From assembly GCA_048938105.1 (NCBI GenBank), contig JBHLMN010000007.1, forward strand, positions 128,001-192,000: a stretch of 64,000 nt of DNA, in the 5' to 3' direction. This stretch comes from Promethearchaeota archaeon. Lineage in GTDB: Archaea; Asgardarchaeota; Heimdallarchaeia; Hodarchaeales; Hodarchaeaceae. Positions 39,778-45,772 of this stretch are shown piece after piece. The notes under the pieces are model-generated. The model did not search any database. It was not told where the DNA came from and saw only the letters and a program-made list of their open reading frames with translations. Both the position numbers and the translations under genes were made by a program. Numbering within the stretch: position 1 is the stretch's first letter; the number at the start of each line of letters is the position of its first letter.

Positions 39778-40641
39778 TTGTCTTTGACAGACGTAGTAGA
39801 TTTGTCATTTGTCCAGATATACTTACTTAACATTTTGATTTCTTATTCAACAGGAGCTATTCGATTTACGTTATTAAATCAAATCAATGATGTTTTCTTT
39901 CATGAAAAACCTTTAGCACCATCTACGTTCTATAATAGTTTACGTAGACTTGAGAAAAAAGGGTTTGTTTCTTTTCAAGAGGATGACAAGAGTTCAAAAG
40001 GAAAAAGTGTCCAGGCGACACTCTTAGGTAAAATAGCTATCCAGATGATCACTCAAATGATGATTTTCAACATTTGGGACATAGGAACGATTTTAAAAGA
40101 GATTGTTCCAGAAGTAATTGCAAAAACTGAATTAAAACCAGTTCATTCTTCTCTTCTAATCCATTTTGATGAATTATTAAATGTGGAATTATTTGATGAA
40201 TTCTATTATCCATACTCTGAAGAACTTTATGTCTTAGCTAGTGATGAATATTATGATAGATACTTAAAACGAGGAATAACAGAGGTACACCAATCAAAAT
40301 TCCGAAATAAGAAGATTCGTGAACCTAATAACTTTTTTGATGCTACATTCTTAGTACGTTACCGAAAAACGGATAAATTCGGGATCTCAGAAATTGAAAT
40401 GCTTCAGGAAGCATTAAGGGTTACAAAGCCAAAAGGAAAGTTAATAATCATATCAATTAATGACATTCCTCAATCGAATCACTTTATTCCAGACGCCATT
40501 GGACAATTTGTAATTCAAAATCCATTCTTTTTTTCAATAAATGAACAAGATTTAAGATCGGATTTTAATGAGGTAGGTATTCAAAACCTGAATGTGCATA
40601 ATATCAATGGAATGATAGTTGCATGGGTAAATATTTTGTGA
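39778..40641 (+). CDS. PadR-like winged-helix regulator fused to a methyltransferase-like domain
   Basis: PSTFYNSLRRLEKKGFV...TLLGK wHTH; NNFFDATF and LQEALRVTKPKGKLII. Confidence 0.7.
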   Translation: MSLTDVVDLSFVQIYLLNILISYSTGAIRFTLLNQINDVFFHEKPLAPSTFYNSLRRLEKKGFVSFQEDDKSSKGKSVQATLLGKIAIQMITQMMIFNIWDIGTILKEIVPEVIAKTELKPVHSSLLIHFDELLNVELFDEFYYPYSEELYVLASDEYYDRYLKRGITEVHQSKFRNKKIREPNNFFDATFLVRYRKTDKFGISEIEMLQEALRVTKPKGKLIIISINDIPQSNHFIPDAIGQFVIQNPFFFSINEQDLRSDFNEVGIQNLNVHNINGMIVAWVNIL

Positions 40642-40773: not shown

Positions 40774-41037
40774 TTATTCAACTTTTCCAGCAGCAAGTCG
40801 AATATCGGAGTCTTTTATGGTTTTACGCCCCGAATGACCAGCAATTTCCACTGCATAGCGAGCAATTTCTAGGCCTCTATTAACGATGATTTGATTCAGA
40901 CTTGTAATAGCATCAGCTGAAACCCGAAAAGCTCCCGCATCTCTTATGAGTCTCTCAACACGAGCTCCTGCAAAACTTGCTTCTCCTTTTGCTGGCTTTG
41001 GTGCTGCTTTCTTCGCAGGTGTTTTCTTTTTTGCCAT
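40774..41037 (-). CDS. Archaeal histone (HMf fold) with ~19-aa Lys-rich N-terminal tail
   Basis: RLIRDAGAFRVSADA...IAGHSGRKTIKDSDIRLA aligns with HMfB (RIIKDAGAERVSDDA...LARHAGRKTIKAEDIELA). Confidence 0.95.
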   Translation of the reverse strand: MAKKKTPAKKAAPKPAKGEASFAGARVERLIRDAGAFRVSADAITSLNQIIVNRGLEIARYAVEIAGHSGRKTIKDSDIRLAAGKVE

Positions 41038-41099
41038 TTTAAATCACAATTTCTCACTATATGAAGTCTTGAAAGACTTAAAAATAAAATTAATCACCC

Positions 41100-41107
41100 T
41101 TTATAAA
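41100..41107 (-). promoter_or_regulatory. TATA box (TTTATAAA) of the histone gene with purine-rich BRE-like upstream sequence
   Basis: Minus strand GGATAAATGTTTATAAAGG about 62 nt upstream of the histone ATG. Confidence 0.55.
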
Positions 41108-41236
41108 CATTTATCCAGTATTAGCACGAAAGAAGAATATATTGAAAAATTAGAGTTCTTTCGTATAGATTATATTCTTTTTACAATTTTCCCATAGTAA
41201 TCTTACAAGGATCGATGAATGAAATCTTATTTTCCA

Positions 41237-42505
41237 TTAAAATGGTTCAAACGTAAAAGGGGATTCTTTGGTCTTAAAAAGCTCATTTAGACTATTAAGA
41301 TATGTCTTATTAGTTATTTGAACTAATCCATATTCGTAAAGCTTTTTTAGATCAATAGTTCCCATTACTAGACTAGAAAACCGCGCAATGTCAATGGATA
41401 ATTCTACATTATAATCTTCTCCAACTGGAATCACTTTTGGTCTTCCTTTTTGAAAATGGATTATTAGTTGACTATCGTTTTCAGGTATGAATGAATCAAT
41501 GATGGTTAACTTCAATTTGATACTCTGGTTTCCAAAATTATGATCAGATAATAAATTAAAGAATTTTGAAGAATTAATTACTCTGTACATAATCCCTACT
41601 CCTTGAATGTTACTCTCCTGAAAGATATGAAAGATATTTTCATTACCTCGGCTTCTTGGTTCCATCAAAAAATGATGAAAATAATGATCGTGAGTATTAT
41701 AGCGAATTCGATGAACTTGATCTTGTTGAGTAGCAAGAAATGATAACAAGCCCAAGAAAGCTTGTGGTGATTCATAAATAAATTCCATAATGTGTAGATC
41801 ATGTTGAAGCCAACTCCCACCTTCCACACGTTTCAAACGAAAGGCTAAATAACCTACTAAAATATTATTTTCCCAATAGCCAATAATTTTCATTCTAAGC
41901 AATTGTTTAAAGGCATCACTTTCCTCTTCCCGTAAAATCATACCATGTGTTGTTGTTGCATATCTGTTAAAGCATTCTGAAATGGCTTTTATATCTTTAA
42001 TAGATAAATAGGATATATTTCCTTTTGTGGTTAATCGTAATGCTTTTGGTTCAAAACTGTATTGATTCATCTTATTTCCTAAACCATAACCCATCCTCGC
42101 ATAAAAATCTGGTGCAAATGGATATAAACATGTTAAACAATACCCACGATCGTAATAGTGTTTATGAGCAAATATCATTAGATCTTTAGCAACATGTTCT
42201 TTCTTATGTAGAAGATCAACGCACACTTCCCCTATTCCACCACATTTAACAATATTCTTTGAATATAAGTTCATTTCAAAATCGTATAGAATCATTCCTC
42301 CCAACAATTTGCTATCTTGAAAACATCCATAAAAATTCACTTTAGTATTTTCATCATTAGTTTTAATCCATTCAGCTTTTTTCTCTCTTTTCATATCTTC
42401 CGTAAAATTATCTGGTACTTGTCCAGGATATGCTCCTGCCCAAATATCTAAAAAAAAGTTAAAATCATTGTCAACTAACTTTCTAATTGTTCTTTTTTCT
42501 TTCAT
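41237..42505 (-). CDS. eis: Eis-family acetyltransferase (double GNAT + SCP2-like domain)
   Basis: 422 aa; GGIGEVCVDLLHKKEHV, LYPF..DFYARMGYG, GIMYRVIN, C-terminal SCP2-like region ending in Phe (EPF). Confidence 0.85.
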   Translation of the reverse strand: MKEKRTIRKLVDNDFNFFLDIWAGAYPGQVPDNFTEDMKREKKAEWIKTNDENTKVNFYGCFQDSKLLGGMILYDFEMNLYSKNIVKCGGIGEVCVDLLHKKEHVAKDLMIFAHKHYYDRGYCLTCLYPFAPDFYARMGYGLGNKMNQYSFEPKALRLTTKGNISYLSIKDIKAISECFNRYATTTHGMILREEESDAFKQLLRMKIIGYWENNILVGYLAFRLKRVEGGSWLQHDLHIMEFIYESPQAFLGLLSFLATQQDQVHRIRYNTHDHYFHHFLMEPRSRGNENIFHIFQESNIQGVGIMYRVINSSKFFNLLSDHNFGNQSIKLKLTIIDSFIPENDSQLIIHFQKGRPKVIPVGEDYNVELSIDIARFSSLVMGTIDLKKLYEYGLVQITNKTYLNSLNELFKTKESPFTFEPF

Positions 42506-42522
42506 ATGAATTTTCCAATCCT

Positions 42523-43119
42523 TTAACCTTGTAATGATGAGAATGTCACTCCTTTTTCCGTTATCATGATTATAGGGCTACTTATAGCTGCTGATAGTGT
42601 TATAACAAGTGTTTTTTCTGTCTGCTCCTTCTGGAAATGATGAACGTGTCCAGCTACTAGAATTGCTGGATGATATTGGTCAACAAGCTTTCTTATTTTC
42701 TTATTACCACAATGGGGAATCATTTTTGTATGAAATGGATCACTACACTGGTCTGCTAAACCGAATGCCGGTTCATGAGAAACTAAGACATCAAGATTTT
42801 TTGGAATAGAAACTGGTTCACATTGATAATCAATACCGAAGAATCGTAATCCAGTTAATTCCTTGAGTTTATCTAGATGATTGTTTAACCAGAAGAAATT
42901 TGGTATTCTCTCCAGTTTTTGATGGAGTTTTTCTTTCCCCCAGGTTTCTTTATTTCCTTTTATGCTAAAAAATGGCAAAGGGAATTCAAAATTATTGTGC
43001 GTTGGATATTGGTGATAGTTAAAGATATCTCCACAGCAAATACAAAGGTCAACTGTCTCTGCGATTTGAAATAACCTGGTGAAATCTCCCTCAAAATCAG
43101 TACTAAGAAGAATTTTCAT
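42523..43119 (-). CDS. Calcineurin-like metallophosphoesterase
   Basis: STDFEG, CGDIFN, KGNKE, VSHEP, AGHVH; stop is 17 bp before eis. Confidence 0.8.
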   Translation of the reverse strand: MKILLSTDFEGDFTRLFQIAETVDLCICCGDIFNYHQYPTHNNFEFPLPFFSIKGNKETWGKEKLHQKLERIPNFFWLNNHLDKLKELTGLRFFGIDYQCEPVSIPKNLDVLVSHEPAFGLADQCSDPFHTKMIPHCGNKKIRKLVDQYHPAILVAGHVHHFQKEQTEKTLVITLSAAISSPIIMITEKGVTFSSLQG

Positions 43120-45175: not shown

Positions 45176-45772
45176 CTAAGAGAATTGATCAGCAATGCAA
45201 TCATAACAAAGAGTTATTTTTACATTATCTGGTTTCGTAATAATCTCTGCACATTCTGTACAAAAAAGTTTCAAACACTTCGAACATTTCATTATTCCAG
45301 GTACGCTTTTACAGCGTTGGCAATAATAATCGGAAGAGTCACTCCCTAATTTTATTACGAGTGATTCCAAGATTTTTTTTATAGTTTGAGGGTTTTTAAT
45401 TACGCTAGAATTAACCCAAAATCTTTCAGTGAGTTGAGGAAAATCCTTTTCTACCAATTCAGAAGGAAGGAAGTCTTGCAGCGAATTTGTCTCAACAAGA
45501 TCAAGATCAATCCTCCAAGTCGCTTTTGGATAGACAAAAACATATTTTCGACCTTTAATCTTTATTTCTAATAACCCAATTAATCCTGCTTCTTCCAGTG
45601 CGGTTAAATGAAAATCAAGCCCTGCTCTTTGAAGATTAAAATGAGTGATTAAGTCAGTTTTAATTAAGAATTTTTCGTTTGTAATATAGTTAAAGATTTC
45701 TAATCGTTTCTTGTTAGAAATTGCTTTTAATATCGGTTCAAGAGAAGTGTTGGATTTCATTCTTGTACACAT
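45176..45772 (-). CDS. ArsR-type wHTH regulator with C-terminal eight-Cys (B-box-like) zinc finger
   Basis: LKAISNKKRLEI...HLTALEEAGLI; CQRC..CSKC..CTEC..CYDC. Confidence 0.78.
   Translation of the reverse strand: MCTRMKSNTSLEPILKAISNKKRLEIFNYITNEKFLIKTDLITHFNLQRAGLDFHLTALEEAGLIGLLEIKIKGRKYVFVYPKATWRIDLDLVETNSLQDFLPSELVEKDFPQLTERFWVNSSVIKNPQTIKKILESLVIKLGSDSSDYYCQRCKSVPGIMKCSKCLKLFCTECAEIITKPDNVKITLCYDCIADQFS

What the first reader, a model, noticed from the sequence alone, without database searches (positions are those of the whole stretch)
40774..43119. Candidate archaeal histone-tail modification locus: metallophosphoesterase -> Eis acetyltransferase -> tailed histone
Seen: three co-oriented genes. 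The phosphoesterase and Eis are 17 bp apart; the histone follows 199 bp later with its own TATA box. Eis keeps the catalytic Tyr region (FYARMGYG) and the C-terminal Phe. Known: M. tuberculosis Eis acetylates aminoglycosides and also protein lysines, including the nucleoid protein HupB, which has a PAKK/KAAK-rich tail; calcineurin-like folds include Ser/Thr phosphatases. Inference: Eis could acetylate the PAKK-type tail and the phosphoesterase could act on the TPAK Thr, giving a writer/eraser/substrate cluster I am not aware of being described in archaea. Caveats: adjacency may be chance, Eis homologs often act on small amines, and the phosphoesterase motifs are atypical (DFE, GNK).
Basis: partly seen in the sequence, partly recalled or inferred. 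Interest (0 to 1): 0.82.

Follow-up and report, generated by a model that had tools for sequence, protein, structure and literature searches.

The report
Eis acetyltransferase gene beside tailed histone
In an archaeon closely related to eukaryotes, the gene for a histone with a lysine-rich tail sits next to an Eis-type acetyltransferase gene, and this pairing persists across related genomes despite rearrangements, so the enzyme is a good but untested candidate for modifying the tail; the phosphatase part of the idea is not supported.

Summary
Three minus-strand genes lie at the stated coordinates: a 198-aa metallophosphoesterase (MPE), a 422-aa Eis-family acetyltransferase 17 bp downstream, and an 87-aa tailed histone 199 bp further on.

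The histone is an HMpB-type Hodarchaeales histone. It has its own TATA box, conserved in seven genomes, so it is a separate transcription unit.

Eis and the tailed histone are neighbours in four arrangements: co-oriented, one gene apart, and two convergent. The Eis proteins involved are only 45-50% identical and the flanking genes differ.

Where Eis is unlinked, other GNATs lie within 1.5 kb of the long-tailed histone. These are a 293-aa FR47-like GNAT in five genomes and a 150-aa GNAT in one. In total, 13 of 14 genomes and 6 of 9 distinct contexts are positive. The genome baseline is 3.4%, and 0 of 21 other histone genes have a GNAT that close.

This supports functional coupling but does not prove acetylation.

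The MPE recurs beside Eis. However, it resembles phosphodiesterases, and the proposed target, Thr6, is not conserved.

A July 2026 preprint already reports Asgard histone-tail writers (LoHAT2) and erasers (SIR2), but not Eis or this linkage.

The parts
42523..43119 (-). Metallophosphoesterase, 198 aa, from a small family found only in Hodarchaeales. Putative metal ligands are D8, E10 (His in more distant members), D31, N56, H115, H158 and H160. GNK replaces the usual GNH in every member.
   Evidence: AF2 model has pLDDT 91. Nearest folds are Dbr1, aq_1956, MPPED2 and GpdQ, TM about 0.6.
41237..42505 (-). Eis-family acetyltransferase, 422 aa, with GNAT, GNAT and SCP2-like domains. It starts 17 bp after the MPE stop codon, so the two are probably co-transcribed.
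   Evidence: Pfam domains. A profile of 109 homologs hits all solved Eis-type structures. AF2 model has pLDDT 93, with TM 0.76-0.88 to Eis structures. Y135 and the C-terminal F422 are invariant in 109 homologs.
41100..41107 (-). TATA box TTTATAAA of the histone gene, preceded by a purine-rich BRE-like stretch, 63 nt upstream of the ATG.
   Evidence: The element (A)AATGTTTATAAAG is conserved in G000, G003, G008, G009, G011, G014 and G018, including cases where the spacer to Eis is only 88 bp.
41043..41047 (-). GTGAT, a Shine-Dalgarno-like element 5 nt upstream of the histone ATG.
   Evidence: Read from the sequence. Conserved as (T/A)G(T/G)GA in the alignment. Its role as a ribosome-binding site is inferred.
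40774..41037 (-). HMpB-type tailed nucleosomal histone, 87 aa. The N-terminal tail is residues 1-21 (codons 40975-41037) and has 7 Lys and 3 Pro.
   Evidence: Orthologous tails are aligned. Reference sequences HMpB.1/2 come from the preprint's Table S2.

Best explanation
The locus has two transcription units. The first is an MPE-Eis pair separated by 17 bp. The second is a strongly promoted gene for the only long-tailed histone of this Hodarchaeales genome.

The Eis-family enzyme is most likely functionally coupled to that histone. The proposed mechanism is transfer of acetyl groups from acetyl-CoA to epsilon-amino groups of the Lys-rich tail, and possibly to the N-terminal amine. This would weaken tail-DNA contacts, as mycobacterial Eis does to the Lys-rich nucleoid protein MtHU.

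The MPE is an accessory partner of Eis with a phosphodiesterase-like active site and an unknown substrate. It is not a tail Thr phosphatase.

What is shown: gene identities, folds, catalytic-residue conservation, the separate promoter, and recurrent non-random adjacency. What is inferred: the substrate and the effect on chromatin.
For: 1. Eis membership is solid.

2. All 14 genomes of the genus that carry a long-tailed histone were found by a histone-centred search. In 13 of them a GNAT gene lies within 1.5 kb of that histone:
- Eis immediately upstream in 6 genomes.
- Eis one gene away in G018.
- A 293-aa FR47-like GNAT as divergent neighbour in 5 genomes.
- A 150-aa GNAT 1.4 kb away in G020.

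3. Histone-centred sampling of metagenome contigs added more arrangements:
- Two convergent histone/Eis arrangements with Eis about 45-50% identical.
- A locus where a divergently oriented MPE (one gene between) lies upstream of Eis, which is co-oriented with the histone.

4. In these contexts none of the six other window neighbours is retained; L140 has only a 39%-identical CysK-like match.

5. Baseline: 3.4% of the genome lies within 1.5 kb of a GNAT hit.

6. Controls: 0 of 21 other histone genes in G000, G009 and G002 have a GNAT within 1.5 kb.

7. On the Eis tree, histone-linked genes fall in two separate well-supported lineages.

8. Precedent: Eis acetylates MtHU and decompacts DNA (Ghosh 2016, as cited in PMC6135046). 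There is a solved Eis structure with a Lys peptide, 6b0u.

9. The preprint shows that Asgard tails can be acetylated and deacetylated. This genome has 4 SIR2 and 3 HDAC-type genes.

10. In Loki-B35, the locus tag next to tailed histone HLoB.3 is a listed candidate HAT.
Against: - There is no biochemical or expression evidence.
- The histone has its own conserved promoter, so co-transcription with Eis is not required.
- Eis and the tailed histone are unlinked in G002, G004, G017, G019 and G020, although both genes are present.
- G010 and G013 have the tailed histone but no Eis ortholog was found. G001 and G016 have Eis but no long-tailed histone.
- Orthogroup members at 41-46% identity occur in MAGs labelled Bathyarchaeota, Theionarchaea, Chloroflexia and Krumholzibacteria, so the family is not histone-specific.
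- In cultured Hodarchaeales and Loki, tail lysines were mostly methylated and acetylation was barely detected.
- Three contexts have no GNAT within 5-6 kb.
- All positive genomes belong to one GTDB genus, the genomes are related rather than independent, and the enrichment test was designed after seeing the data.
Confidence: 0.42

Rival explanations
1. There is no functional link. The adjacency is a remnant of ancestral gene order within one genus. Eis, with the MPE, acts on small amines such as polyamines or aminoglycoside-like compounds, or on many proteins non-specifically.
For: - The wider block ABC transporter, orf287, histone, Eis, MPE, (UDG, CysK), ArsR-like is roughly syntenic in the close clade.
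- In G010 the same block lacks MPE and Eis, so these two behave as an indel between the ArsR-like gene and the histone.
- The genes are unlinked in at least five genomes that have both.
- The Eis orthogroup is present in bacteria that have no histones.
- Characterised Eis homologs acetylate aminoglycosides (structure titles).
- The genome has about 61 GNAT loci, so some neighbour pairs are expected by chance.
Against: - The adjacency survives inversion and complete turnover of flanking genes in lineages with 45-50% Eis identity.
- Three different GNAT families occupy the neighbourhood of the same histone.
- 0 of 21 other histone genes have a GNAT within 1.5 kb.
Confidence: 0.33
2. The coupling is functional but indirect. 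Eis modifies another polycation that competes with or cooperates with the tail on DNA, for example spermidine or another chromatin protein. The genes are kept together because both tune DNA compaction.
For: - Eis enzymes accept many polyamine-like substrates (my own knowledge, plus the ligand complexes listed).
- Tail acetylation was rare in native Asgard histones.
- The adjacency signal does not identify the substrate.
Against: - No polyamine-metabolism genes are in the conserved neighbourhood.
- Unrelated small GNATs also sit beside the same histone, which fits a shared protein substrate better.
Confidence: 0.15
3. One reading: a writer/eraser/substrate cluster in which Eis acetylates the tail and the MPE dephosphorylates pThr6 in the TPAK motif.
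For: - MPE and Eis are 17 bp apart.
- They recur together in co-oriented, divergent and convergent arrangements.
- All seven metal-ligand positions are present.
Against: - Thr6 occurs in only 2 of 14 orthologous tails, and the TP dipeptide in only 1.
- The motifs are DFE/DFH, GDIF and GNK, not the PPP signatures.
- The nearest folds are phosphodiesterases.
- No phosphorylation was detected on Asgard histones.
- The MPE is on other contigs in 7 of 13 genomes that have both genes.
Confidence: 0.05

Closest known systems
Mycobacterium tuberculosis Eis acting on the nucleoid protein MtHU (HupB)
   Same: - Same three-domain Eis fold, with the conserved catalytic Tyr and the C-terminal Phe carboxylate.
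- The proposed substrate is again an abundant DNA-packaging protein with a Lys/Ala/Pro-rich extension.
- Acetylation of MtHU lowers its DNA binding (Ghosh 2016, via PMC6135046).
   Different: - Only about 15-18% sequence identity to solved Eis proteins.
- The host is an Asgard archaeon.
- The candidate substrate is a true histone-fold protein with an N-terminal tail, not HU with a C-terminal tail.
- The link here is genomic adjacency; no activity has been measured.
LoHAT2 / SIR2 histone-tail writer and erasers of Lokiarchaeum ossiferum (bioRxiv 10.64898/2026.07.02.735847)
   Same: A GNAT-superfamily enzyme is proposed to acetylate the Lys-rich tail of an Asgard tailed histone (HLoB/HMpB class). 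SIR2 and HDAC erasers are also encoded in this genome.
   Different: - LoHAT2 is a roughly 180-aa RimJ/RimL-type GNAT (PF13302), not an Eis.
- It was picked by an AlphaFold screen, not by gene linkage.
- The paper does not mention Eis or synteny.
HMpB.1 tailed histone of Ca. Margulisarchaeum peptidiphilum HC1
   Same: Same histone class: a canonical archaeal fold with the GAFRVSA and SGRKT motifs, and a 16-32 aa tail with more than 30% Lys.
   Different: The tail sequence differs: a PAKK type here, against an RRTSRSR-containing type in HC1. The nearest HMpB.1-like contig that was sampled has no GNAT within 5 kb.
Small metallophosphodiesterases (Dbr1 catalytic domain, MPPED2, GpdQ, Rv0805, MJ0936/YfcE)
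   Same: Same calcineurin-like fold and a complete set of dimetal ligands.
   Different: - TM only about 0.5-0.65 and 12-16% identity.
- GNK is invariant where GNH is usual.
- His10 is replaced by Glu in the close clade.
- The family was seen only in Hodarchaeales (45 proteins).

Membership tests
Eis family (GNAT-GNAT-SCP2 acetyltransferases) | Three-domain architecture: N-terminal GNAT, central GNAT and C-terminal SCP2-like domain | tested here: met
   PF13527 (87.9 bits), PF17668 (40.6 bits) and PF13530 (50.7 bits), in that order.
Eis family (GNAT-GNAT-SCP2 acetyltransferases) | Fold matches solved Eis structures over the whole length | tested here: met
   AF2 model with pLDDT 93.3. Foldseek TM 0.76-0.88 to 3n7z, 2i00, 2ozg, 6rft, 3sxn, 4jd6 and 3ryo. 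The sequence profile hits the same entries, E down to 6e-27.
Eis family (GNAT-GNAT-SCP2 acetyltransferases) | Catalytic Tyr in the N-terminal GNAT, and a free C-terminal Phe carboxylate that reaches the active site | tested here: met
   Y135 (in FYARMGYG) and the terminal F422 are invariant in 109 homologs. Y135 aligns with the YYRRKGW Tyr of 2i00. Equivalence to Mtb Tyr126 and Phe402 rests on my own knowledge.
Eis family (GNAT-GNAT-SCP2 acetyltransferases) | Hexameric assembly and multi-site N-acetylation of polyamine-like or Lys substrates | not testable with these tools
   Needs purified protein. No oligomer model was run.
HMpB/HLoB-type tailed nucleosomal histone | Canonical archaeal histone fold | tested here: met
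   PF00808, E 2.5e-11. NF043032 archaeal histone, 85.9 bits.
HMpB/HLoB-type tailed nucleosomal histone | Disordered N-terminal tail of about 16-32 aa with more than 30% Lys (criterion in the preprint's Suppl. Fig. 3 legend) | tested here: met
   The tail is 21 aa with 7 Lys (33%). It is the only long-tailed histone among about 10 histone genes in this genome.
PPP-type Ser/Thr protein phosphatase | Signature motifs GDxHG, GDxVDRG and GNHE | tested here: not met
   The motifs here are DFEGD (DFH in distant members), GDIFN and GNKE. GNK is invariant in 43 sequences. No PPP enzyme is among the 50 Foldseek hits listed.
Calcineurin-like metallophosphoesterase superfamily | Beta-sandwich fold with a conserved set of Asp/His/Asn dimetal ligands | tested here: met
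   PF00149 above its cut-off. D8, D31, N56, H115, H158 and H160 are invariant, and position 10 is His or Glu. The fold matches Dbr1, MPPED2, GpdQ and Mre11.
Single writer-substrate operon | Enzyme and substrate genes transcribed from one promoter | tested here: not met
   The histone has its own conserved TATA box and SD-like element. Convergent Eis/histone arrangements also exist. No RNA data were available.

The most novel reading that the evidence does not exclude
In Hodarchaeales, the archaea closest to eukaryotes, the long-tailed histone gene is kept beside a changing set of dedicated GNAT writers: Eis in most lineages, and an FR47-like or a small GNAT in others. On this reading, histone-tail acetylation is a selected, genomically encoded module that predates eukaryotes. 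Eis would be a writer class not used by eukaryotes, and the Hodarchaeales-specific GNK-type metallophosphoesterase would be a new accessory or eraser activity.
Probability: 0.22. Interest if true: 0.85.

Novelty: new variant of a known kind. Interest (0 to 1): 0.62.

Why it matters
Histone-tail modification is a hallmark of eukaryotic chromatin. Its origin is only now being traced into Asgard archaea.

A writer candidate identified by conserved gene linkage would be independent of the AlphaFold screen used so far. It also lies in the order thought to be closest to eukaryotes. That gives a concrete enzyme-substrate pair to test.

It would also extend a parallel with mycobacteria, where Eis acetylates the Lys-rich nucleoid protein HU. 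This would suggest convergent use of one enzyme family to loosen very different DNA-packaging proteins.

If the link is not functional, the locus is simply a known histone type next to an ordinary GNAT.

Tried and rejected
- Complex prediction of Eis with tail residues 1-30: no verdict, score 0.01 against a mark of 0.32. This is neither for nor against binding.
- The look-up of sequencing runs: no RNA holder listed, only sediment and mangrove DNA runs. Co-transcription could not be tested, and read laying was not used.
- The sigma-70 promoter and terminator scan does not apply to archaea and found no more than chance.
- Overall charge and pI of the Eis orthologs vary from 5.4 to 8.6 with no pattern related to linkage. 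Not informative.
- The locus scans with the histone alignment used patterns so specific that they recovered only this genus.
- The two other Hodarchaeales genera held (G021, G022) showed only tailless or short-tailed histones. The test could therefore not be extended beyond the genus, apart from one HMpB.1-like contig.
- The preprint's supplementary table is truncated. I could not see whether any Eis-like protein was among its 63 candidate writers.
- I considered Vps29-like or YfcE-like assignments for the MPE. The matches are weak (TIGR00040 at 22 bits against a cut-off of 56; Vps29 TM about 0.45).
- I first read the conservation as simple inherited synteny (notes). I revised this.
Full report
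**Observation**

The window is G000:C42:128001-192000 of a 5.85-Mb MAG. Source names of close homologs place it in Hodarchaeales/Heimdallarchaeia. Its GTDB genus includes B3_Heim and the closed genome CP070695.

Three ORFs lie on the minus strand:
- 43119..42523, 198 aa.
- 42505..41237, 422 aa.
- 41037..40774, 87 aa.

Pfam gives Metallophos (29.2 bits), Acetyltransf_9 + Acetyltransf_17 + SCP2_2, and CBFD_NFYB_HMF. NCBIfam gives archaeal histone at 85.9 bits.

**The histone**

The genome has about ten histone genes. Only this one has a long Lys-rich tail (21 residues, 7 Lys). One has a short tail and one is a doublet.

It belongs to the HMpB class described in bioRxiv 10.64898/2026.07.02.735847. 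[quoted passage not shown] - carry mainly lysine methylation;
- show acetylation only rarely;
- show no detectable phosphorylation.

A TATA element, TTTATAAA (41107..41100), lies 63 nt upstream of the ATG, with an SD-like GTGAT. The element is conserved in seven genomes, even where the spacer to Eis is only 88 bp. The histone is therefore its own transcription unit.

**The acetyltransferase**

- A profile of 109 homologs hits every solved Eis-type structure.
- The AF2 model (pLDDT 93) superposes on these at TM 0.76-0.88.
- Y135 and the terminal F422 are invariant.

Membership in the Eis family is therefore met on every feature I could test.

The orthogroup is not confined to Asgard. Members at 41-46% identity carry Bathyarchaeota, Theionarchaea, Chloroflexia and Krumholzibacteria labels and form outgroup clades. 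The genome has two further Eis-like paralogs at about 23% identity, neither of them on a histone-bearing contig.

**The phosphoesterase**

- Only 45 relatives were found, all at least 50% identical. Nearly all are labelled as Hodarchaeales or Heimdall-type Asgard MAGs.
- All dimetal ligands are kept.
- GNK replaces GNH in every member.
- Position 10 is His in distant members and Glu in the close clade.
- The AF2 model (pLDDT 91) is closest to phosphodiesterases: Dbr1, aq_1956, MPPED2, GpdQ and Rv0805, at TM about 0.5-0.65. It is not close to PPP phosphatases.
- Thr6 is present in 2 of 14 orthologous tails, and the TP dipeptide in 1.

The pThr-eraser idea is therefore not supported.

**Linkage within the genus**

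A histone-centred search of all 21 genomes of the genus found long-tailed histones in 14.

| Context | Genomes |
|---|---|
| Eis directly upstream, co-oriented | G000, G003, G008, G009, G011, G014 |
| Eis, a zinc-ribbon membrane protein, then the histone | G018 |
| 293-aa FR47-like GNAT as divergent immediate neighbour; the Eis ortholog is elsewhere or was not found | G002, G004, G013, G017, G019 |
| 150-aa GNAT 1.4 kb downstream of the histone | G020 |
| No GNAT within 6 kb: an ArsR-like gene directly precedes the histone in an otherwise similar block | G010 |

The G010 arrangement means that MPE and Eis behave as a two-gene indel.

**Linkage in other contigs**

Four tailed histones were chosen only by tail and contig length:
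- Two are convergent with a 422-aa Eis, 138 bp and 500 bp away, with entirely different flanks. Their Eis proteins are at most 51% identical to any in my set.
- Two have no annotated GNAT within 5 kb.

The metagenome scan added three kinds of locus:
- Eis followed by the histone, 375 bp apart.
- A divergently oriented MPE, one gene, then Eis co-oriented with the histone.
- Further examples of the two main types.

On the Eis tree, the histone-linked genes fall in two separate supported lineages. The sister lineages are unlinked.

**Is the adjacency chance?**

- GNAT-domain hits form about 61 loci in G000. 3.4% of the genome lies within 1.5 kb of one.
- None of 21 other histone genes in G000, G009 and G002 has a GNAT within 1.5 kb. 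Two have one at 2.5-2.9 kb.
- The long-tailed histone has a GNAT within 1.5 kb in 13 of 14 genomes and in 6 of 9 distinct arrangements.
- Even if all Eis arrangements count as one inherited event, 3 of 6 is about 8e-4 under the baseline.

Two cautions apply. The test was designed after seeing the data. The genomes are also related, so I treat it as strong suggestion rather than proof.

An outside hint comes from Loki-B35. The tailed histone HLoB.3 is locus tag 03971, and tag 03972 is listed as a candidate HAT.

**MPE-Eis linkage**

| Arrangement | Where |
|---|---|
| Co-oriented, short gap | 5 of 6 close genomes |
| Convergent, 33 bp apart | L074 |
| Convergent, one gene between | G012 and L076 |
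| Divergent, one gene between | L140 |

Of the 13 genomes that have both genes, the MPE is on another contig in 7. A functional tie to Eis is plausible, but its chemistry is unknown.

**Counter-evidence**

- The genes are unlinked in several genomes.
- G010 and G013 have the tail without an Eis ortholog being found. G001 and G016 have Eis without a long tail.
- The Eis family is wider than the histone-bearing organisms.
- Native tail acetylation is rare.

**Comparison with what is known**

The closest functional precedent is mycobacterial Eis acetylating MtHU (Ghosh 2016, via PMC6135046).

The closest archaeal precedent is LoHAT2/SIR2 in the 2026 preprint. LoHAT2 is a RimJ/L-type GNAT, and the paper mentions neither Eis nor synteny. 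Literature searches found no report of an Eis-histone link in archaea.

My analysis adds the convergent arrangements, the alternative GNAT neighbours and the controls.

**Verdict**

This is a real, non-random gene association and a good candidate writer-substrate pair, but it is unproven. The phosphatase part of the model is rejected as stated.

Noticed in passing
L079:4605-5486 (minus) with the histone at L079:6001-6279 (plus); own-genome ortholog at G000:C11:112795-113655: A 293-aa FR47-like GNAT is the divergent immediate neighbour of the long-tailed histone in five genomes where Eis is unlinked or was not found. A Pirin gene sits on the other side of the histone. In the window's own genome this GNAT lies elsewhere.
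   Followed up: partly
G000:C27:209139-209669 (minus) and 211939-212163 (plus) = L122: The genome's short-tailed histone (tail MTKKPKRKAG) has a 176-aa GNAT as its nearest upstream ORF, across a 2.27-kb stretch with no ORF of 70 aa or more. In G014 the GNAT's ortholog sits 0.75 kb upstream of an Arg/Lys-tailed histone variant (L058). The content of the 2.27-kb gap was not examined.
   Followed up: partly
window 45176-45772 (minus): A 198-aa protein combines an ArsR-type wHTH with a B-box-like zinc finger. It is the conserved upstream neighbour of the MPE-Eis-histone block in G009, G011 and G014. An ArsR-type HTH_5 protein (207 aa) directly precedes the tailed histone in G010. It may be a regulator of the histone or of the block.
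   Followed up: partly
G000:C9:82562-83419 and C9:79397-79585: An HDAC-type deacetylase gene lies about 3 kb from a divergent histone variant. In addition, SIR2 genes at C14:142112 and C53:134361 each lie within about 1.2 kb of a GNAT hit.
   Followed up: no
window 42523-43119, residue 10: The motif-I metal ligand His is replaced by Glu in this MPE and its closest relatives (20 of 43 sequences). These include all the Eis-adjacent copies of the close clade. More distant members keep His.
   Followed up: partly
window 39778-40641 (plus): A 287-aa ORF has no Pfam or NCBIfam match. It is conserved (73-91% identity) next to the histone in G003 and G011, and absent from the same position in G008, G009 and G014.
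   Followed up: no
G000:C14:223640-224092: A doublet (tandem-fused) histone of about 150 aa. Counterparts were seen in 14 of the 21 genomes of the genus.
   Followed up: no
(source names): NCBI organism names for members of this single GTDB genus vary: Heimdallarchaeota, Hodarchaeota, Thorarchaeota, Hermodarchaeota and Promethearchaeota. For example, a protein labelled Thorarchaeota is identical to the Eis of G001. Taxon labels on hits should therefore not be read as evidence of wide distribution.
   Followed up: partly
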